A DNA stretch of 64,000 nt, from NCBI GenBank assembly GCA_951406725.2, contig OX597816.1, forward strand, positions 124,620,001 to 124,684,000, in the 5' to 3' direction. Source of the stretch: Octopus vulgaris. Lineage: Eukaryota. Both the position numbers and the translations under genes were made by a program. The stretch's first letter is position 1; each line of letters opens with the position of its first letter. The notes under the pieces are model-generated. The model made no database searches and was not told the origin of the DNA. It worked only from the letters and a program-made list of their open reading frames with translations. Positions 3,342 through 61,244 of this stretch are shown here, one piece after another.

Positions 3342-3714
3342 TCGTCAGTTCTCACTTCACGCCGTTGAAAGGATCTTGAGAAGTGCACCTTTTAGGGAAA
3401 TGATAGAAAGCGAAATCAATTTTATCATAGGTTTAATGATATAAATAATAGTTACGTTCCCATCAGTATATTCCCACGGTATAATTCTTGTTTCCAACTC
3501 AGAAAAACATCAACAAACTCTGAAGTCTTCGAGCATTAAACATTGAAATGTGCGTAATGTATATACATTTACGAAAGATGAATACAAATGACTAAGCTAT
3601 TTATTTACTTAAAAGAAATTTCCAAGCATCTTTTTCGCCGATTATTATTTTTCTCTTCGTACAATTTCTTGTGGTATTTGTGCGAACTCATTATTAAACG
3701 ACATGAAATCCGTA

Positions 3715-12905: not shown

Positions 12906-12940
<35 letters not shown>

Positions 12941-12941
<1 letters not shown>

Positions 12942-13480
12942 CATTTTATAAAGGGCTTAGTAAAATAACTTTGCCACATACTGAACTCATTAGAAATAGC
13001 AGCCAAAAAAAATTTCTCTAGCCGAATTCTAATACTTAAAGAAAATTTCTCTCAGATAGTGCTTACTCAGAATAGCCCACGAAGGTATGGGGGTAAAAAC
13101 ATTAAAAAATCACAAATGCAAAGGTTATTTGAGAACGTACGTTTCTAGATCAGCCAAATACAATTCGACATTTCTTTCGTCAGCCCAAAATTCCTTAATT
13201 CGGATTTGCAAACACTTAAAGTAGGAGCATACCCTTTTGGCGACTTTTCACCTCAGAAGATCCGTTCAGACTATCAGTGCCAACAAATTCAAAATATGCA
13301 AGCGAAGAATTTCTGCCCTCCCCTTTCCACCCACGTGGTCTAATCTAGCAAACACCATAATTTTATCGGTGAAAACCGAAGCATTAAACAGAGAGAAATG
13401 AATTATAATTTCAACAATTGAGGGTAAAATTAATTAATTATTAATCAATTTCACCAAGTATTCAGTATGTAAAGGGACCA
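12941..13480 (+). repeat. Non-coding ~540-bp interspersed repeat adjoining (TA)n and carrying the unassigned structured motif
   Basis: GGCT...GCC-ACATACTGAA-CTCA-TTAGAAATAG-CAGCC at 12954-13004 and the complementary TTCAGTATGT at 13461-13470. A homologous motif lies at 56926-57054. Confidence 0.5.
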
Positions 13481-13620
13481 TAACTGGTACTTAATTTATC
13501 GACCCCGAAAAGATGAAAGGCAATGTCGACCTCGGCGGAATTTGAACTCAGAACGTAATGGCAGACGAAATACGGCTACGCATTTCGCCGGCGTGCTAAC
13601 GTTTCTGCCAGCTCGCCGCC
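13481..13620 (-). mobile_element. tRNA-derived SINE with Meta-domain-like core, 3'-truncated
   Basis: Minus strand: GGCGGCGAGCTGGCAGAAACGTTAGCACGCC (A box), GAGTTCAAATTCC (B box), then GTCGACATTGCCTTTCATCTTTTCGGGGTCGATAAATTAAGTACCAG. Confidence 0.85.
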
Positions 13621-13629
13621 TTGAAAAGA

Positions 13630-21794: not shown

Positions 21795-24250
21795 TCATAT
21801 CAACGGGGAATATTCATGGTCTTTCTAATACACAATTTACCCATACGCGTAATTGTATTGTATGGGGGTGCTTCTGCTATTACTGACCAAGACAATGAGT
21901 ATTGTATATATTTTAGTTTAAGTTCTTGTATATACAAGGCTAGCATTGCAGAAGATTTAAATCTTGCGTTAGTAAAAGGGGTCAAATGGACCCTATATTT
22001 ACGTTTAAAGTTTACAGTGCCTCCTATATAAATTTTTACTCTCTGTGTAGCAGGAATTTCTACAGAACAGCTATATACTATACTATTAGGTAAACAGGAA
22101 CCGGCTAACGGACACGCCTCCTTTATCTGACAATTACATGTCCCCCCACATCGGTATTAATTTTCCTGTTATTAGAGGTTAAGACACCCTCAACAGTGAG
22201 GGTTTGACCTGGCGTAATGTTTACACTAGAGCTATTGTCAGTTTTGGGGTTATAGAGTTCATTATAAAGATTAGTGTGGGTAGATTTCTTAAATCTGGGT
22301 TTAGATCTATTGATGGAAGCTATGGCCGAACCTAAATTCGGACTTGTTATGTACGACAATAACACAGATGATATATTAAAAATAGAATTATATTTATGAT
22401 TTTTAGGAAAATTTTCATTCATTATCTTAAAAACAATTTGGGTACAGATTTGACGTGAAGAGAAAATGGTGGGGCAAACCATAAAATCTCTCATTTCCTA
22501 GATTTTATCTTTTTGGTCGTATTAGACTGGTTGTGGATATCGGATTATATTTATGTAAATACTATGTTATTAATTCAAGCCTTATTACTAGATCGTGAGC
22601 CAGTTCTTTGGTCTGAAGAATTGTATCAGGGATGTAAAATATTTATTTTTTTAAAACGACTTAACTTTAAGGCTTGGCTTTAATATGGAGCGTGGGTGTT
22701 AAATATTTCCTCGTTCGCCGACAACTTTGAGAATCTAATTGAGATAGCCGTTACCATAACATCGAGGAGTGATCTAAGAGGATTATAAAGAGTTTGATTT
22801 GGTTTTCTATGTGGATAGAATAGATTAGTTTTAAGATGAAGTGTGACGGCTAAAAAATTAGCCATCTTAAGACATATTTTGAACAATATGTTTAAATTAT
22901 AATTTTTAAAGAATTTTATTAAATCTTTCTTAGTGCATTCAATCTCTGGACTGGATAAATTTTTAGTTGCCAAAATAGCATTCTTTATAGAAGCCCCCGG
23001 CGATTTTAGGGAGTTGTTGCTTAATTTTTGAGAGAAGAAATAGTCCCACAAAGTCTGTTCACGAGGATCACATTGTTATATCAAAAAGGTCAGAGTTAGT
23101 ATTACGGGTCCAATTTTTATCATTAAAGGTTATAAGGGTATTTCTAGCAGTCAGGATTAAGTCTATATGAGATGCAGAAATGGATGTACAGTTTTGGACA
23201 AACGCAGTAGTATAGGTGTTATTGAGGCGTAATTATCCCTAATATCACTAGGTAAACCAACTTACGTAGTCTGATCAATAAGCATCCGGACTGTTGACAT
23301 AGTAACGATGCTAAAGCACAAAGAGTAAAGCCGTTTGATACAGATTGACTTTGAAATCTGTTCTGCATGCACAAAAAGTTTTAACGATCTAACTCACTTC
23401 CGCTGTATACAACGGTGCTTGGAAGGAACGTGCGTAGCGTGTGATCGTTGCATTGATCATGACTGAGACAGTGGAGCAGAGAATCTGCTTCAAATTTTGC
23501 CAAGCGCTTGGCGAAACCTTCTCAGAGGCCTGCGCAATGTTTTCAAAAAGGTTTCATCGTTCTCAAAACAATCAAGGAGACCTTGTGCAACTGAAACCCG
23601 GGTGTCTTTTTGGTCAGCGGAAGCAGTTTTGGCACAGAGATTGCACATACTCGTCTCATACTCAAATCTTCGGTGATAATGGACTGATCTGACTGTAACT
23701 AATCTGCACATCCTCTGTTAAGTCACCGATGGTAATTCAACGATTTCCCCTCACAGCTGCACGCACATTTGCGATTTTATTCTCAGTTATGCTGGTTGCG
23801 ATTCTCCAAAGAGTTTTCGTCAATATCGACATTTTTCGGCCATCTTGGAAACGTATGAACCACTCGTACACTTGTGTGCGTCTCATTCATTCCTCTACAC
23901 ACACTTTCTGCAACTTTGCGTAGGCCTCTGAGCTGGTATTGCCATGACAATTTTTTGTCATGGTCAATGCACCGATCGCACGCTACACACCTTCCTTCCA
24001 AGCACTGCTTTAAATAGCAAAAATGAGTTAGAACATTAAAACTTAATATGCATGCATAGCACAGTTCATGGTCAATCTGTGTGAAGCGGCTTTACTCTAC
24101 GTGCGTTAGCTTCTTTACTATGACAACAGTGCGGATACTTATTGATCAGACCTCGTATAAAGACATTTTGTTTATGTTAATAATCTAACACCATATTTTA
24201 AACTGTTTTATTTAGAACTCTGATATTGGTTCGTTGATTTGAGGACGAAG
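21795..24250 (-). mobile_element. Decayed Penelope-like element (RT plus GIY-YIG), interrupted by a mariner derivative
   Basis: Fragments LFDITM, TKKDLIKFFKNYNLNI...NFLAVTLHL...YPHRKPN, WFAPPFS...NFPKNHKYNSIFN...LSY..PNL and LALYIQELK...SWSVIAEAPPYN are characteristic PLE RT, thumb, linker and EN motifs. The part beyond 24157 is weakly supported. Confidence 0.85.
23265..24155. mobile_element. Mariner derivative made of two opposed 5' ends
   Basis: TA|CGTAGTCTGATCAATAAG...CTTATTGATCAGACCTCG|TA. Both arms include the transposase start (MTETVEQRICFKFCQALGET on +; MTK...YAKLQKVC...RVSVAQGLLDCFENDETFL on -). Confidence 0.85.
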
Positions 24251-46051: not shown

Positions 46052-47400
46052 GTGTGTCTATTCTGTATTTTGTGTAGTTTGTTCTTAGTCATAATCAGCC
46101 ATCTTTTTTCTCTGTCTTACTTATCTTCAAAATCACTAAGAAAAATTGTCCATGCATTATTTTCCTTACACAGCTATATTCAGTTTCATTCATTTTCAGT
46201 TGCTTGTACAGTAATTTATCTTTGCAATCATTCGTCCTACGCAAGCCTGACCTTCTTACTTCTCATAATAGCGGTTCTGTGGCATATTTTACATACCATT
46301 CTAAGTTGTTTTCTTCTGTAATAATGCTGTGTTTGCATCCATTAAGTCCTCTAACTCCTTTTTTTCTTGGTACATACGTTGTCTGTGTCACTTTTTGGGG
46401 TGGAGTGGCCCATATCTAGTCAACAACTTCTTTGCCTTTCCGTCTAAGCGGTTTAGTTTGTCTGCTGTCCATACGATTACCCCTGCTCCATTTCTAAGGA
46501 TTGAAACCGCCCAGGTGTTGATAGCTTCGATCTTATTCCGTCCGTTTAATTTCGACTTAAGATGAGTCTCAGTCTGCGCAAATACTCCACTTTAATTTTT
46601 TCTGAAATTTCTTTCTCCATCAATTTATCCATTGCCAATATCCCCAAGTACTTATAGCCCGTCTCTTCTCTCTGTTTCATAACCTCCCCCGATTGTATCG
46701 TTAGTTGATTTTGCCTCGCTTCAAGACTAGCACACCACACTTTCTCAGTCCGAACTCCATTCTGATATCAGCACTGAAATTATACACCGTATCAACGAGG
46801 GAACTGACTTGGGCCTCAACTTTACCATAAAGTTTGAGGTCATCCATGAATAGCATTTTGACATTTTGTTGGCGGCTTTTGAATACATACCATACCCAGC
46901 TTTTGCTTTCCTCAGAATCAGTGTTAGTGGCATGAATCATAGTACAAAGATCAGTGGGGACAGGTAGTTCCATTGGAAATGCCCCTCCTGATTTCTATTG
47001 TGCCTAAGCTTCTTCCGTATGCTGTCAGGTCCGTTTTCTAATTCGCCAGACATTTTCCAAGCATTCGCTCAACATTCGATGCAATACCAAATAGGTTCAT
47101 ACATTCCATAGTCCAAGGGTGTGGGATCATATCGTACGCCTTACAAATCCTTGACATGGCTAAGTTAGTTTTCCTCATCTTGCAGTCTCTAAGTACAGTT
47201 TTGTCTATCAAAGGTTGATCGTTGGTACCTCTGCAAGTACGCTTGCAACTTTTCTGCTCATGTAGCAGTACTCCGTTGTTTTTCAGATATCCGTACATTG
47301 ACTCTGCGAGTATTCCAGTCAATAACTTCCACATAAGTGGCAAACAGGATATCGGCCTGTAATTGTCTACCGTATTGCCTTTTTGCGATGTTTTTCAAGC
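46052..47400 (-). mobile_element. R4/Dong-clade LINE RT remnant
   Basis: [79 protein letters not shown] and MHGQF; frameshifted. Confidence 0.92.
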
Positions 47401-47799
47401 ACAGCACTGTCCTACACAATGTCAACGACTCTGACAGGGTTTTTCGAGAGACATATAAGGTGAAAAAGCTCGTTTCTTGTGCACGTGTTCAGTACGCGAG
47501 CACTGCTAACTTAGGAAGTTTGTTAAACCACTGTTCTCACGGGAAGGTTGCACTTTCAAGTCCATCGTAGTGATTGCTCTGCCATCTTAGCTCATTTCCT
47601 TCTGATTATTGGCCCTGATGCGGGAGATTGTGAAGCTGACACGCTTGGAAGACTGAGTTTAGACGTTTACCATCTTGGCCAACCTGTTCCAATTATTCAT
47701 GGAATGGAAGCTGTGACTCGAGAGAGATATAAATTTGCTGAAAGTTAAATGAGCATAACTCCAGTTAATGCATTCGGTATGCATCTTTAAGCTAGAGTA

Positions 47800-48450
47800 T
47801 GCAGTTGAGAACTACCCTTACTTCAGGATAATTTAAGATCTACCTGGTTCTTTTATTCGTCATAGACAGTTATATTCCTTGGGGAGCTTATCACATTGCA
47901 TACTGTTTATAACGCCTTCGTTTTACTCAATTATCTGAGTTTTGTGTAAACTGCTTCATCTTGTTATAACATGTCCCTGTCATATTCCCTTAACGTTTTA
48001 TGTAAGTGACGAGTATAAACAAATCATTTGTATTTTTATTCTTTTTCAGCAGCGAGATGATAAGTGTCTAATAAGTATGTAGGACTATGTTTGTATACTA
48101 CACCAGTTTCAAATTATTTGAGTATTTAAAAAAAAATTGCTTGTGTTATTCTAGTCTAGTGATTTTTTAATGCTTTTTCTTTTGTTTTAGAGTATGCACT
48201 ATGCGAATTGTGTTATTTTCTGAAGTGGCGTTTGAGTTTAGTATGTGCTGTGCGTTTGATGTTCTGTAGTATTGGATGGTATTCGAATAGAATATGTGGT
48301 TTGTAGTTTAATAGGCAGCTGCTATGTAAATGAAGATATATGACATATTGATGTTACCCTGTCGAGTGCTTATTGTGTATTTTACTGGATGCTGATCGTG
48401 TATATTATGTGTGTTGTATGTGGTTGTGTTTTATTAGGTAGTGGTTGTGG
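47800..48450 (-). pseudogene. Highly decayed Penelope thumb/GIY-YIG remnant
   Basis: TTTYNTHNIHDQHPVKY and EGVINSMQCDKLPKEY...RIKE resemble PTTTD...SxHP and GVVYxIxCxxCxxxYIG...RIKEH. Confidence 0.4.
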
Positions 48451-49074
48451 GATAAATGTATTGTGTCCAGGGAGAGATATAGAGGAAGAAAGGGGCGGGA
48501 GAGAGAGAGAAAAAAGCAAGAATATTAATTTTACTGTGATATTGAAATATATGTGTCTTCATTTAAATACGCTTTTCTTTCGGAAAAGAATTATAAACGC
48601 ATGTGATTTCCTAAACGTCTTTTCTTCTATAGTTTAAAGTGTCTTCTTTTTATTTATATCATACTCTTTCTCGTTCTTTAGGTTTTTATCTCTACACCTT
48701 AGATCCTTTCTTTTTCGTTTCCATTTCACTAAGTAAGGATAAGTCTTACCTTTAATCTCAATTGTATGTAGTAAACTTGATTTTCATTTTTGGCTGAATG
48801 TTTTCTGAGAGTTCAACTCTCATAGAAACAAATCAGATATCCTCCTGTACTATATCAGCCACTAAATATATCACATAATCTAGTCAGCTGATATTCAAGT
48901 AGTTTGTTTCAGTGGACAGATTTTCTTAGAAGGACTTGTTACATTGATTTATTCAAAGTTACGCGTCCGTCTGTAATAATGTCATAATGTCAGACAAGTG
49001 TTTATGTTGATTCATGTTAATCGATTTTATTATGAGTCCTTCAGTTTTCATTAGTGTTTCCGGTAGAAGACCAC

Positions 49075-49262
49075 AAGGTGGCTGAATCGTTAGCACAGCG
49101 GACAACGTGCTTAGTGGAATTTCGTTGGTCTTTATCCTCTGAGTTCAAAATCCTTTTACTGTCGAAGGTGTACTTGCTGCGCACTGGAGTCGATGCAATC
49201 GACTAGCTTCTTCAATCTACCACCACCTAAACATTTCAGACCTTGTGCCTATTGTAGAAAGG
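49075..49262 (+). mobile_element. Degenerate Meta-like SINE with internal deletion
   Basis: GAATCGTTAGCAC...GAGTTCAAA...GCACTGGAGTCGATGCAATCGACT...CCTTGTGCCTATTGTAGAAAGG. Confidence 0.7.
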
Positions 49263-49264
49263 TG

Positions 49265-50700
49265 GTTGAAGCTACCAACATTTGCCTTAGGACATTTGTC
49301 ATTGTCTTTCGGGTAGTGCGAACGAGTTGGTCAATCACCGCTTGTGTCCATTTCAGGATGGGTGCATTATAGCGGATAACAGCAACATTCCATATCTTGA
49401 TGGCAGTCACAGGGTTTTTGAGTTGAACTTTGATTTTAAGAGGAGTTTGAGGCACTCAAAATATGCAGTGATAAACATATCTTTTTTTTTTTCTGTGCAA
49501 GATATTGCCCAGCTCCAGGATCCCAAGATACTTGTACCTATCCTCATCCGGATCTTTCATTCTATCTCCGTTTGGCAATTCTATGTCCCTGTAATTTACT
49601 CTTTTCCCCCATTTCAAAGTAAGCACCGCACACATCGCGATTCCGAGTACCATTCCTATAATGCTTGCTGCACATTGGTACAGTCTCAACCAGCCTCTCC
49701 ATTTCAGGCTCTGTTTTTGCGATCAGTTTTAAATCATCCATGAAGAGAAGCTGATTGAAACGAAATTCATTCTTTCTCAGCTTATAGTGTGCATTGACTT
49801 TGCATAGGACTACAGAAAGTGGGTTCAAGGCTATAACAAATAACAGAGGTGAACAAGAGTCTCTTTGGAGGATATCTCTTTTGATTGTTACCTCGGCTAA
49901 GTGCATACACCTTCTCATCTATTCCACACATGTCGAGTGTTTCCAAAATCTACGAATACGGCAACATGTCGTAAGCTTTTTTGTATTCTACCCAGGCCAT
50001 GCATAAGGCTTTTTTGGTACCGTTTAGATTTCTTCATTATAACCTTGTCTATCACAAGGTGGTCCTCGGTGCTCTCGGATCATTTTCGGCATTCATTTTG
50101 TTCTACTGGCAGAAGATTGTTTTCCACAACGAACGTATATATTTTTCCTGCGAGGGTATCTGTTAATACGTTCCATATGAGGTTAAGACAAACAATGAGT
50201 TGGTAATTGCTAACCTCATTGCCCTTTAACCGATCTTTCATTAACAATGTTGTTCTTCCCTCTACCACCTATTCCGGAACTGTACTACTCTGTAGGCAAT
50301 TGTCTAATGGCAACGCAATTCTCTTGAGTATTGACTTAAACCACTTGAGCCGATGGCCTTGATTTTCGTCTGGTCTTGCTGCTTTCTAGTGCGGCAGTTT
50401 TCATATCTGTGCAATGACATCTTCTGTTGTTATGTGCACATGGCTCTGTCGTGAAGCCTCCGGGTGATGGAGGTCGGATCTCACTGAATGAATCCTCTCA
50501 GCACTGTCGTTCTGCGAAAAGTCTCGCCTCTAGATGTTATTGTAAAATTGGCGGGTTATCTCTGAATTCGGATATAATCTTCAGTATTTCTTCCTAAGCC
50601 CTTACAAAACTGCTTCTGGTTATTTGAGAATAACCGGTCTTGCTGGAACTGGAATATGCGATCAGTGTAGCGCTGCAACATTAATGTTTTAGCCCGCACA
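49265..50700 (-). mobile_element. Second R4/Dong-clade LINE remnant
   Basis: FQQDRLFSNNQKQF, VEGRTTLLMKD...NYQLIVCL, QRDSCSPLLFVIALNPLS, QLLFMDDLKL, YKYLGILEL and AVIRY. Abuts (TAA)n at 50706-50835. Confidence 0.92.
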
Positions 50701-56491: not shown

Positions 56492-58015
56492 GTCAAAGAC
56501 CGTTTTTTTCCATTTCTATAAGTAGAGATTCCAAAAACGAAGGCCCTTGCGGCTCACATACACAAAACCGGAGTGGCAAATACACGAATTCAGTCACTTA
56601 CCGTTAATAGCGAACACGGTGTTTCTGGATCACAAACATATAAAAAAAAGGGTGAGTTTGAATTCCTTCATCAGCGCTATATTCGTTAGCTTTATCAAAT
56701 GCCACCAGCCCTCACTTCTGACCCAGCGACATCAGATAGTGGGGGGAAATGCGCAGATGTTAAAACCAAGTAACGACTGGGAACGTAAATTTTCCCTCCA
56801 AAATTCTGCCATGCGCGCCTTCTGGGTAATCGTAATGGAATGAGGAATCCACATGGTAATACAATAAAAATGGTAAATAATTTTCCTGTGGTTTTTCATG
56901 TAACCAACAATTATTTACCGGTAAATTTCGGTATGTAAATACGACAAAATAATTGTCAAGACTTTTGTAAGGTTCAGTATATAGTAAAGAAAAATAAGTT
57001 GGCTAGCAGCAAGCTGTTTCGCCTCATACCGAAGGAATTAGAAATGGCAGTCAAAGACCGTTTTTTCCATTTCTATAAGTAGAGATTCCAAAAACGAAGG
57101 CCCTTGCGGCTCACATACACAAAACCGGAGTGGCAAATACACGATTTCAGTCACTTACCGTTAATAGCGAACACGGTGTTTCTGGATCACAAACATATTA
57201 AAAAAAGGGTGAGTTTGAATTTCTTCATCAGCGCTATATTCGTTAGCTTTATCAAATGTCACCAGCCCTCACTTCTGACCCAGCGACATCAGATAGTGGG
57301 GGGAAGTGCGCAGATGTTAAAACCAAGTAACGACTGGGAACGTAAATTTTCCCTCCAAAATTCTGCCATGCGCGCCTTCTGGGTAATCGTAATGGAATGA
57401 GGAATCCACATGGTAATACAATAAAAATGGTAAATAATTTTCCTGTGGTTTTTCATGTAAAGAAAAATAAGTTTCGCCTCATCGGTATGAGGCGAAACAG
57501 CTTGCTGCTAGCCAACTTATTTTTCTTTACTATATACTGAACCTTACAAAGGTCTTGACAATTATTTTGTCGTATTTACATACCGAAATTTACCGTAAAT
57601 AATTGTGGTTACATGAAAAACCACAGGAAAAATTTAATTGTTGGTTACATGAAATTGTTGGTTACTTGGTTTTAACATCTGCGCACTTCGCGCCCCCACT
57701 ATCTGATGTCGCTGGGTCAGAAGTGAGGGCTGGTGGCATTTGATAAAGCTAACGAATATAGCGCTGATGAAGGAATTCAAACTCACCCTTTTTTAATATG
57801 TTTGTGATCCAGAAACACCGTGTTCGCTATTAACGGTAAGTGACTGAATTCGTGTATTTGCCACTCCGGTTTTGTGTATGTGAGCCGCAAGGGCCTTCGT
57901 TTTTGGAATCTCTACTTATAGAAATGGAAAAAACGGTCTTTGACTGCCATTTCTAATTCCTTCGGTATGAGGCGAAACAGCTTGCTGCTAGCCAACTTAT
58001 TTTTCTTTACTATAT
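56491..58015. repeat. Young 558-bp unit in tandem plus inverted copies within (TA)n
   Basis: Unit 1 is 56491-57048 and unit 2 runs 57049-~57480 with deletions. An inverted copy spans 57483-58015. Copies are near-identical. Confidence 0.95.
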
Positions 58016-58022
58016 ATACATA

Positions 58023-59450: not shown

Positions 59451-59474
<24 letters not shown>

Positions 59475-59622
59475 AGAAAATAGTAAAGTGTGAAAAAACG
59501 ACAGAAGGCTTAAATGTTAAAAAATATATATATTTGTGTCAAAATGTCTGGAGAATATTGGAAAAAAAATTTTTTTTTTTTTTTCCCTTTACTTAAAATG
59601 ACATAATTTTAAAATTTTTAAA

Positions 59623-59658
59623 GAAATTACCGGTTTCGCGTGTAGCTTTTCAAATTTC
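59623..59658 (-). ncRNA. Minimal hammerhead motif with U3-A8 core (inverted pLTR copy)
   Basis: Minus strand GAAAT-TTGAAAA-GC(TACAC)GC-GAAA-CCGG-TA-ATTTC. Confidence 0.75.
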
Positions 59659-60002
59659 TTGTGACGTTATGTTTATATTGCATGGAATTATCGTTGTTTT
59701 TATTTCCAGGAGATTTCTATATAAGGGGAGGTAGTGAGTGATTTTTTCCGGTGTAGGGGAAATAATCGCTTAAAAATTGTTTTTCCCTTTTCCTTGTTAA
59801 TTTCTCTGTGTCAGTATGTTCGGATGGTTGAGTCTGGGTTTGTACTTTTCAATGACGAATGTTTCCTTGTTCAGTCTCATTTGTGTTGATGATCCGAAAG
59901 CACATTGGTAAAATGGGAAGATTAAAAATTGTGGCAGTAGTTGCTTTGCGCATTTCTCAATGTGCTCACTAAAAGGTATCATTCTATATTCTGGGAATGC
60001 AA

Positions 60003-60863
60003 TCATGCCACCCAAGACACACTAAAACAAACATCCCCTTCAACCTTGCAAGAAGGATATGCACAATAGTGTCAGAACAAAATACCAGGAACTTTAGACT
60101 GCAAGAACTCAAAAACACCCTAATTGACAGACATTACCCAGCTCAACTCATAGAGGATGGGATCAGACGTGCAACAGAAATCAACATAGAAACTTTAAGA
60201 AAAGTTCAACACAACAACACACCTTCCCCGAAAATACTACCTTACATATCTACATACAACCCCAGAAACAAAGAAGCCTTCACCATCATCACCCAGAATT
60301 TACCAATACTTCATAAAAACCCAAAATTAAAGGAAATTCTAAACATACACCAAATCATTAAAAGCTACAAACAGCCTAAATCACTTAAAAAGATTCTCAC
60401 AAAGGCATAATTGTCTTCTAAAATTACGGATGCAAAAGTAAAAAAATGTGGTAGATCGAACTGTGCAACATGTCCTAACCTATTGGAAGGATCAGAATTC
60501 TTCTTTAAAGAGGGACAGAAATTTAAGATCAAATCTAACTTTACTTGTGCCTCTGAAAACATAATTTATGTTATTAAATGCTCGGGCTGCCACCAAGACT
60601 ACGTGGGTTCCACGGGACTATCACTCAGGCGCAGATGCACACTGCATCGACAACAGATTGCATTCCCAGAATATAGACTGATACCTTTTAGTGAGCACAT
60701 TGAGAAATGCGCAAAGCAACTACTGCCACAATTTTTAATCTTCCCATTTTACCAATGTGCTTTCGGATCATCAACACAAATGAGACTGAACAAGGAAACA
60801 TTCTTCATTGAAAAGTACAAACCCAGACTCAACCATCCGAACATACTGACACAGAGAAATTAA
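60003..60863 (+). pseudogene. PLE ORF C-terminal part: RT thumb, Zn-finger-like linker, GIY-YIG endonuclease
   Basis: SCHPRHTKTNIPFNLARRICTIVS...YNPRN...KQPKSLKKILTKA*...CGRSNCATC...NIIYVIKCSGCHQDYVGSTG...LHRQQI...KETFFIEKYKPRLN. One in-frame TAA at 60408-60410. Confidence 0.93.
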
Positions 60864-61001
60864 CAAGGAAAAGGGAAAAAAAATTTTTAAGCGATTATTT
60901 CCCCTACACCGGAAAAAATCACTCACTACCTCCCCTTATATAGAAATCTCCTGGAAATAAAAACAACGATAATTCCATGCAATATAAACATAACGTCACA
61001 A

Positions 61002-61037
61002 GAAATTTGAAAAGCTACACGCGAAACCGGTGATTTC
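61002..61037 (+). ncRNA. Minimal hammerhead motif with U3-A8 core and G at the cleavage position
   Basis: GAAAT-TTGAAAA-GC(TACAC)GC-GAAA-CCGG-TG-ATTTC. Confidence 0.7.
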
Positions 61038-61244
61038 AAAAATTTTAAAATTATGTCATTTTAAGTAAAGGGAAAAAAAAAATAATATTTTTTTTGGAAT
61101 ATTCTCCAGACATTTTGACACAAATATATATATTTTTTAACATTTAAGCCTTCTGTCGTTTTTTCACACTTTACTATTTTCTTATATATTCACCCACGTG
61201 CTTTACCAAACAAACTTTCTTATCTATATATATATATATATGAT

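What the first reader, a model, noticed from the sequence alone, without database searches (positions are those of the whole stretch)
56926..57054. Unassigned covarying pseudoknot plus GAAA-hairpin motif shared by two otherwise unrelated repeat families
Seen: the 558-bp unit has TTCGGTATGTAAA (56927)...TTGGCT-16nt-GCC-TCATACCGAA-GGAA-TTA-GAAA-TGG-C-AGTCAA. The repeat at 12941-13480 has GGGCT-15nt-GCC-ACATACTGAA-CTCA-TTA-GAAA-TAG-C-AGCC and TTCAGTATGTAAA. The 9-10 bp long-range helix covaries (G-C in one family, A-T in the other). GGCT/AGYC interleaves with it, giving a pseudoknot order. The GAAA tetraloop stem keeps pairing only through G-U wobbles on the + strand, which points to a sense-specific RNA fold. 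The rest of the two repeats shows no similarity by eye. Established: PLE and retrozyme repeats in tandem arrays normally carry hammerheads, and other retroelements carry HDV-like or twister ribozymes. Inference: no convincing hammerhead is present in either repeat, so this may be a different self-cleaving or RT-recruiting RNA. The helix order recalls HDV-like folds, but the P2, L3 and P1.1 details do not fit. The evidence is two families and one covarying pair.
Basis: partly seen in the sequence, partly recalled or inferred. Interest (0 to 1): 0.8.

Follow-up and report, generated by a model that had tools for sequence, protein, structure and literature searches.

The report
Retrozyme pair with hidden hammerhead ribozyme
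The shared motif is real, but it sits in two distantly related 550-base repeats whose opposite strand carries an unusual hammerhead-ribozyme sequence, so they are likely retrozymes (non-coding passengers of Penelope-like retrotransposons), and the motif is predicted to be an ordinary nested RNA fold that likely recruits the copying enzyme, not a new ribozyme.

Summary
The motif exists as described (12977+, 57025+, 57942-; 0 of 100 shuffles). The interpretation mostly fails. The two repeats are collinear distant homologues (interior z=3.4, 0 of 300 shuffles). Both carry, at the same place on the MINUS strand, a type I hammerhead: CUGANGA and GAAA, covarying helices I and II, a palindromic helix III, a GUU site and an unpaired A on each side of the stem II base. 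My post-hoc descriptor hit 0 and 3 of 3000 shuffles; Rfam misses it. Whole units fold better on that strand. There the motif is nested: the AGYC block pairs locally with a two-sided change, and the long helix closes a loop holding two hairpins. Family A is multicopy, tandem and inverted, and lands in (TA)n, the Penelope-like pattern. Insertion ends fall 121-193 nt past the hammerhead cut, inside this domain, as in a Penelope-like element whose reverse transcriptase starts internally. Best reading: non-LTR retrozymes, with the motif as the likely enzyme-recruiting domain. Cleavage, RNA circles and the autonomous partner are not shown. New variant of a known kind; interest 0.45.

The parts
56492..57049 (-). 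Family A unit 1 (558 bp); RNA sense inferred to be the minus strand; left end abuts (TA)n
57050..57481 (-). Family A unit 2, partial tandem copy ending in short deletion scars at the inversion point
57482..58016 (+). Family A inverted copy (about 1.1 units, internal deletion); right end abuts (TA)n
56600..56687 (-). Type I hammerhead variant, A unit 1: core CUGAUGA from 56674, predicted cut after 56613 (GUU); helix I 6 bp + internal loop + distal stem; helix II 3 bp + internal loop + 5 bp
57157..57244 (-). Hammerhead of A unit 2 (predicted cut after 57170); one substitution breaks a helix II pair, so the descriptor misses it
57751..57837 (+). Hammerhead of the inverted A copy (core 57764, predicted cut after 57824)
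57039..57075 (-). Stem-loop SL1 in A: the conserved AGYC/TTAGAAAT block pairs locally (5 bp + 9 bp)
56927..57033 (-). Long helix (57025-57033 with 56927-56935) closing a loop with hairpin 57001-57023, an open linker holding the insertion end 56978, and hairpin 56942-56958
56872..56919 (-). Hairpin directly 3' of the long helix; counterpart in B at 13423-13455
12941..13490 (-). Family B, about one unit long; RNA-sense 3' end at (AT)n (12908-12940), 5' end abuts a SINE-like fragment
13121..13196 (-). Type I hammerhead variant in B: core CUGACGA from 13183, predicted cut after 13134 (GUU)
12954..13034 (-). B: SL1 (12988-13034), one arm of the long helix (12976-12986) and the GGC/GCC hairpin (12954-12975)
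13460..13488 (-). B: other arm of the long helix (13460-13470) and a 4-bp hairpin (13477-13488) that overlaps the SINE junction

Best explanation
Steps: (1) a tandem array is transcribed in the hammerhead sense (inferred); (2) the hammerhead, probably as a dimer or with protein help, may cut it into 550-nt monomers or circles (inferred, not required); (3) a PLE protein binds the domain 95-300 nt past the cut (inferred by analogy); (4) its endonuclease nicks (TA)n and reverse transcription starts inside the domain, giving ends at +121 and +192/+193 (ends shown, cause inferred); (5) read-through and second-strand priming give partial tandems and an inverted arm (anatomy shown, cause inferred). 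Class assignment about 0.85; the enzyme-binding role about 0.5.
For: Homology. Hammerhead at the homologous place and strand in both families; descriptor hits in 0 of 3000 (A) and 3 of 3000 (B) shuffles. Helix I keeps 6 of 6 pairs in both with three changed positions; both distal stems and stem II change sequence but keep pairing; helix III is palindromic in B and near-palindromic in A. Contig variants change only tolerant positions among those shown: core N7, the nucleotide after A9, and a 3-nt deletion that leaves a palindromic helix III (tables 4 and 7). Whole-unit folding z is -4.0 (A) and -4.8 (B) on minus against -2.6 and -2.2 on plus (25 shuffles each). Sister families keep the hairpin after the TTCGGTATG arm with different stems, and keep the SL1 partner (table 7). 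Family A is multicopy in three coded organisms (625, 441, 572 and 10 contigs laid). All 5 ends seen abut TA runs; 4 of 5 lie 121-193 nt past the cut. Partial tandem plus inverted 5'-truncated copy in (TA)n is the PLE pattern (PMC8557442). The anole PLE starts reverse transcription internally in a stem-loop about 85-92 nt past its hammerhead cut and needs the first 172 nt of its ORF (PMC11167929).
Against: No cleavage, circle or binding is shown. The descriptor was loosened after I saw the motif. Rfam gives no hammerhead hit even at E up to 10. The core departs from canon: unpaired A between stem II and G12, GUU triplet, A-U first pair of stem II in B. In A the hammerhead helices are not dominant (helix I 0.43, helix II 0.28), and helix III forms in neither fold. 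Only 1 of 9 Xenopus retrozyme dimers cleaved in vitro. In A the local strand test does not discriminate (28 vs 33 of 1000), the 171-nt piece folds slightly better on plus (z -2.2 vs -1.6), and one hairpin has a G-U valid only on plus. Helices read off the minus-strand fold favour that strand by construction. No autonomous partner was found; the neighbouring PLE shares nothing past its hammerhead (z -1.8 to 0.0). One of 5 ends lies at +311, outside the loop, and the A and B ends are not at homologous positions. Only two full families plus 8-30-nt sister fragments support covariation.
Confidence: 0.6

Rival explanations
1. Same element class, but the motif is not the enzyme's handle: it is an internal promoter, an RNA-stability or circle-compaction fold, or simply the slowest-changing part of a shared ancestor.
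For: Retrozyme circles are generally highly self-paired (PMC7229834). PLE terminal repeats hold the promoter. Primary sequence, not only pairing, is kept (TTAGAAAT, CATAC). Ends also occur outside the loop.
Against: Conservation peaks exactly where 4 of 5 ends fall. Hairpin stems vary while pairing is kept, which a DNA promoter would not need.
Confidence: 0.25
2. The units are multimerised terminal repeats (pLTRs) of a coding PLE rather than a separate non-autonomous family.
For: Xenopus retrozymes are sisters of PLE pLTRs (10.64898/2026.07.22.740005). Loose ends at 56816, 56902 and 56941 lead into unseen sequence.
Against: No stop-free frame above 105 aa in either unit. Contigs cover the whole 557-nt ring. 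Both families are about 550 nt.
Confidence: 0.12
3. One reading: a plus-strand pseudoknot with a GAAA hairpin, a new or HDV-like self-cleaving RNA that replaces a hammerhead.
For: 4 G-U pairs in the proposed helices are valid only on plus. The folding program cannot model pseudoknots, so zero probability for that helix is not a test.
Against: A hammerhead exists. The helix is 4 bp in B and shares GGC with a hairpin 5-7 kcal/mol stronger. Variant T56999A (4-27% of depth in 3 of 4 runs) breaks its outer pair, and a sister family has GGCG for GGCT, which lengthens the hairpin instead. B lacks the GG after the long helix. The Y position has a two-sided partner on minus.
Confidence: 0.04
4. Non-autonomous Helentrons (HINE/DINE-1-like): the long helix is a pair of subterminal inverted repeats and GGC..GCC the 3' DNA hairpin. 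This was my first reading.
For: B read alone has that layout: one arm near each end and a hairpin next to one arm (definition in PMC4067079).
Against: Arms are 9-10 bp, not 11-15. The 45 nt that would be host DNA between copies are a high-depth, structurally conserved part of the family. Ends vary and lie in (TA)n, not in TT at fixed termini. A hammerhead is conserved inside.
Confidence: 0.03

Closest known systems
Animal non-LTR retrozymes (PMC7229834; bioRxiv 10.64898/2026.07.22.740005)
   Same: Non-coding, low-GC tandem units with one type I hammerhead each, predicted highly self-paired, found as monomers and multimers; known in a mollusc (mussel, 350-390 bp).
   Different: About 550 nt (above the 150-450 bp of the first paper, within the 51-972 bp of the second); hammerhead not matched by Rfam; a downstream domain conserved between two families at about 50-60% identity; circles and cleavage unshown.
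Hammerheads of PLE terminal repeats (PMC4209133)
   Same: [quoted passage not shown]
   Different: A further unpaired A before G12 (or an A-A mismatch at the base of stem II; axolotl HHR_Amex2 has U-U there), GUU site, internal loops in both helix I and helix II.
Internal reverse-transcription start of the anole Poseidon PLE (PMC11167929)
   Same: Starts lie internally, downstream of the hammerhead, at more than one site, with AT-rich targets.
   Different: Starts here would be 121 and 192-193 nt past the cut and 71 nt apart, against about 85-92 nt and a 30-40-nt tail; no sequence comparison was possible; here inferred from ends only.
Naiad/Chlamys PLEs and their non-autonomous partners (PMC8557442)
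   Same: (TA)n targets, partial tandems, inverted 5'-truncated copy.
   Different: Naiads lack canonical hammerheads and are only remnants in cephalopods; these units keep a full core.
Helentron-associated HINE/DINE-1 (PMC4067079, PMC7492417)
   Same: Short inverted repeat near both ends of a lone copy, hairpin beside one arm.
   Different: No fixed TT-flanked ends, shorter arms, conserved spacer and hammerhead.

Membership tests
Type I hammerhead | CUGANGA and GAAA core boxes, N free | tested here: met
   N is U, C or A across families and variants
Type I hammerhead | Helices I, II, III round the core | tested here: met
   helix III only 1-3 bp as monomer
Type I hammerhead | Pair 10.1-11.1 stacked directly on A9 and G12 | tested here: not met
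   an unpaired A on each side in both families; hence filed as a variant
Type I hammerhead | NUH cleavage triplet | tested here: met
   GUU in both; an uncommon H (recalled)
Type I hammerhead | Score against Rfam hammerhead models | tested here: not met
   no hit at E up to 10; the window's minimal PLE hammerhead is also missed at gathering score
Type I hammerhead | Site-specific self-cleavage | not testable with these tools
   needs in vitro assay
Non-LTR retrozyme | Short non-coding tandem unit with one type I hammerhead per unit | tested here: met
   A: three cores, two in tandem 557 nt apart, one with a helix II mismatch. B seen only as a monomer.
Non-LTR retrozyme | Dispersed, multicopy | tested here: met
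   A. B not tested outside the window.
Non-LTR retrozyme | Expressed as linear and circular monomer RNA | not testable with these tools
   only contigs were laid; they cannot show circles or strand
PLE-mobilised element | Partial tandem, inverted 5'-truncated arm, microsatellite target | tested here: met
   against PMC8557442
PLE-mobilised element | Shared terminal sequence with an autonomous PLE | tested here: inconclusive
   no similarity to the one PLE with a readable end in the window; no genome held
HDV-like ribozyme | G at position 1 and a GG/CC P1.1 after P1 in all members | tested here: not met
   helix begins U-A; B has CTCA where GG is needed
HDV-like ribozyme | Rfam match | tested here: not met
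Helentron HINE | 11-15-bp subterminal inverted repeats | tested here: not met
   9 and 10 bp
Helentron HINE | Fixed ends in TT | tested here: not met
   ends at 56978, 57050-equivalent, 56859 and 12941, all at TA runs

The most novel reading that the evidence does not exclude
The domain is the portable loading site of Penelope-type reverse transcriptases: a stem-loop followed by a long helix that encloses the single-stranded start region between two hairpins, the way telomerase RNA encloses its template (PLE enzymes are telomerase's sister group). Two diverged parasites would have kept it, defining by covariation what a PLE enzyme recognises, together with a hammerhead variant that current models miss.
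Probability: 0.2. Interest if true: 0.72.

Novelty: new variant of a known kind. Interest (0 to 1): 0.45.

Why it matters
How Penelope-like reverse transcriptases pick their RNA and start internally is barely known; one in vitro study maps a start site but no conserved fold. Non-autonomous passengers keep only what the enzyme needs, so a domain conserved between two diverged families, with insertion ends inside it, is a concrete candidate to mutate. The hammerhead variant also shows a form that Rfam and strict descriptors miss, so such elements are probably under-counted. It is not evidence for a new ribozyme class.

Tried and rejected
No whole genome is held, so no genome-wide alignment or R-scape test. 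Rfam: 0 hits at gathering over the window; at E up to 10 only low-scoring microsatellite, miRNA and snoRNA matches; a C/D snoRNA reading was rejected because A has no box D at the matching place and helix I plus GAAAC..GUU are conserved. No tRNA genes. My first hammerhead scan required a 10.1-11.1 pair and at most 40 nt, and missed both families. Motif pattern: 0 hits in metagenome and viral contigs. A shorter pattern gave 114 metagenome loci from 31 of 64 parts; none had the upstream arm, a partner helix over 6 bp or similarity beyond the pattern, so all were dropped as chance. Hammerhead pattern: 0 viral hits, 2 bacterial hits without helix I or GUU, dropped. No RNA holder listed among 24 runs. 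Protein search with the decayed endonuclease at 21803-22156: 0 of 41 candidates. Earlier findings by place and sequence: none. Helentron reading tested and rejected. Lunse et al. (PMC5785218) is not held, so its hammerhead variants were not compared.

Full report
Observation. Family A forms one array, 56492-58016: a full 558-bp unit, a partial second unit, short deletion scars, then an inverted copy of about 1.1 units, with (TA)n on both sides. Family B, 12941-13490, is single in the window, lies next to (AT)n, and has its TTCAGTATG arm at the far end, so its helix order equals A's only if the unit is closed into a ring. The genome is AT-rich and dense in microsatellites and SINE-like repeats; it looks like an octopus, which is a recalled resemblance and was not tested. 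No whole genome is held.

The families are related. With both motif blocks removed, the interiors align collinearly (global z=3.35, local z=3.51, 0 of 300 dinucleotide shuffles; reverse-complement controls z=0.41 and 0.51). The whole units share 310 identities in 506 aligned columns. One stretch, the 66 nt beside the TTCRGTATG arm, shows no sequence signal (z=-0.95), though both families fold a hairpin there.

A hammerhead is present. The best-kept interior block reads, on the minus strand, helix I - CUGANGA - A - helix II - A - GAAA - short helix III - GUU - helix I. Cores start at 56674(-), 57764(+) and 13183(-); unit 2 has the same core with one broken helix II pair. The loosened descriptor gave 6 hits in the window: these 3, 2 in a neighbouring PLE and 1 unexplained at 3376. 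It hit 0 of 3000 shuffles of A and 3 of 3000 of B; it was written after I saw the motif. Helix I keeps 6 pairs in both families with three positions changed; helices I and II each continue past a 3x3 internal loop into distal stems of different sequence. Among contig variants, N7 and the base after A9 vary, and a 3-nt deletion leaves a palindromic helix III (its tables are cut, so invariance elsewhere is not shown). The extra base after A9 and the palindromic helix III are PLE hallmarks (PMC4209133). The second extra A and the GUU site are atypical, Rfam finds nothing, and in A the active fold is not dominant (helix I 0.43, helix II 0.28). Activity is unknown.

Strand and fold. On the hammerhead strand both give the same nested plan: stem-loop SL1, then the long helix (0.96-0.97) enclosing the GGC/GCC hairpin, an open linker and a second hairpin, then a further hairpin. 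With the block fixed and its neighbour shuffled, minus beats all but 28 (A) and 14 (B) of 1000; plus gives 33 and 296, so A alone does not discriminate. The isolated 171-nt piece of A folds slightly better on plus.

Other copies. Twenty of 24 listed runs hold family A, from three coded organisms and nine studies; I laid 4 of them. All 29 bins are covered in all four, including the 45 nt between the arms, and a joint closes the ring. Loose ends show sister families that share 56902-56941 and then carry a hairpin with a different stem, one that keeps the SL1 partner, and one with GGCG in place of GGCT. Only the best-supported rows were shown (100 loose ends hidden). Two contig ends run into (TA)n, at 56978 and 56859; the contig ending at 56978 lacks the deletion of the window's inverted arm, so it is another copy. 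B's small hairpin overlaps the SINE junction and is weak evidence.

Mechanism. Partial tandems, an inverted 5'-truncated arm and (TA)n targets are the PLE pattern (PMC8557442). With 3' ends facing outward, as in the PLE at 59468-61189, the RNA sense is again the hammerhead strand. The five ends lie +121, +192, +192, +193 and +311 nt past the predicted cut. The anole PLE protein nicks AT-rich DNA, starts internally at two sites in a stem-loop downstream of its hammerhead, and does not need cleavage (PMC11167929). I therefore read the units as non-LTR retrozymes (about 0.85) and the motif as the likely enzyme-loading and start domain (about 0.5). Shown: sequence, homology, anatomy, ends. Inferred: strand, fold, cleavage, binding, partner.

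Literature seen. PMC4067079, PMC7492417, PMC8557442, PMC6765202: passages. PMC7229834: passages, part 2 of 6 and section 14. PMC11167929 and PMC4209133: parts 1-2 of 4. bioRxiv 10.64898/2026.07.22.740005: parts 1-3 of 5. PMC13282606: part 1 of 3 and the supplement list. Searches listed no paper on cephalopod retrozymes or on a conserved PLE start-site fold (listings only for the rest). No supplement was read; the anole paper's structure figure, the octopus repeat library, Repbase/Dfam and Lunse et al. could already hold these families or this variant.

Verdict. Observation partly confirmed; a new ribozyme is unlikely (0.04). New variant of a known kind, interest 0.45; 0.72 if the domain proves to be the PLE enzyme's loading site (probability 0.2 for the telomerase-like form).

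Noticed in passing
window 59468-61189: 5'-truncated GIY-YIG PLE with a 537-bp inverted arm in (AT)n; minimal type I hammerhead with the U3-A8 core change at 59653-59628(-); the copy at 61007(+) has G at the cleavage position. Missed by Rfam. Four protein relatives at 58-98% identity.
   Followed up: partly
window 21800-23075 (-): Decayed frames resembling a second PLE endonuclease and RT region (recalled resemblance); no Pfam or protein hit.
   Followed up: partly
window 13483-13622 (-): 5' half of a tRNA-like SINE joined directly to the RNA-sense 5' end of family B through a short shared stretch: possible template-switch chimera.
   Followed up: partly
window 56978, 58016, 12941: A and B ends lie 192-193 nt from the hammerhead cut although they are not homologous positions: coincidence or a ruler. 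Unexplained.
   Followed up: no
window 56919 and 13455 (-): GGTRAA directly 3' of the long helix in both families: 5' arm of a hairpin, and also like a splice donor (PLE terminal repeats can hold an intron start).
   Followed up: no
window 57457-57481: Two microhomology-bounded jumps at the inversion point of the array, suggesting template switching.
   Followed up: no
window 23263-24157: Element with 201-bp inverted arms at 82% identity; looks mariner-like (recalled).
   Followed up: no
window 47038-49918 (-): Decayed non-LTR reverse transcriptase fragments, weak RVT_1 hits.
   Followed up: no
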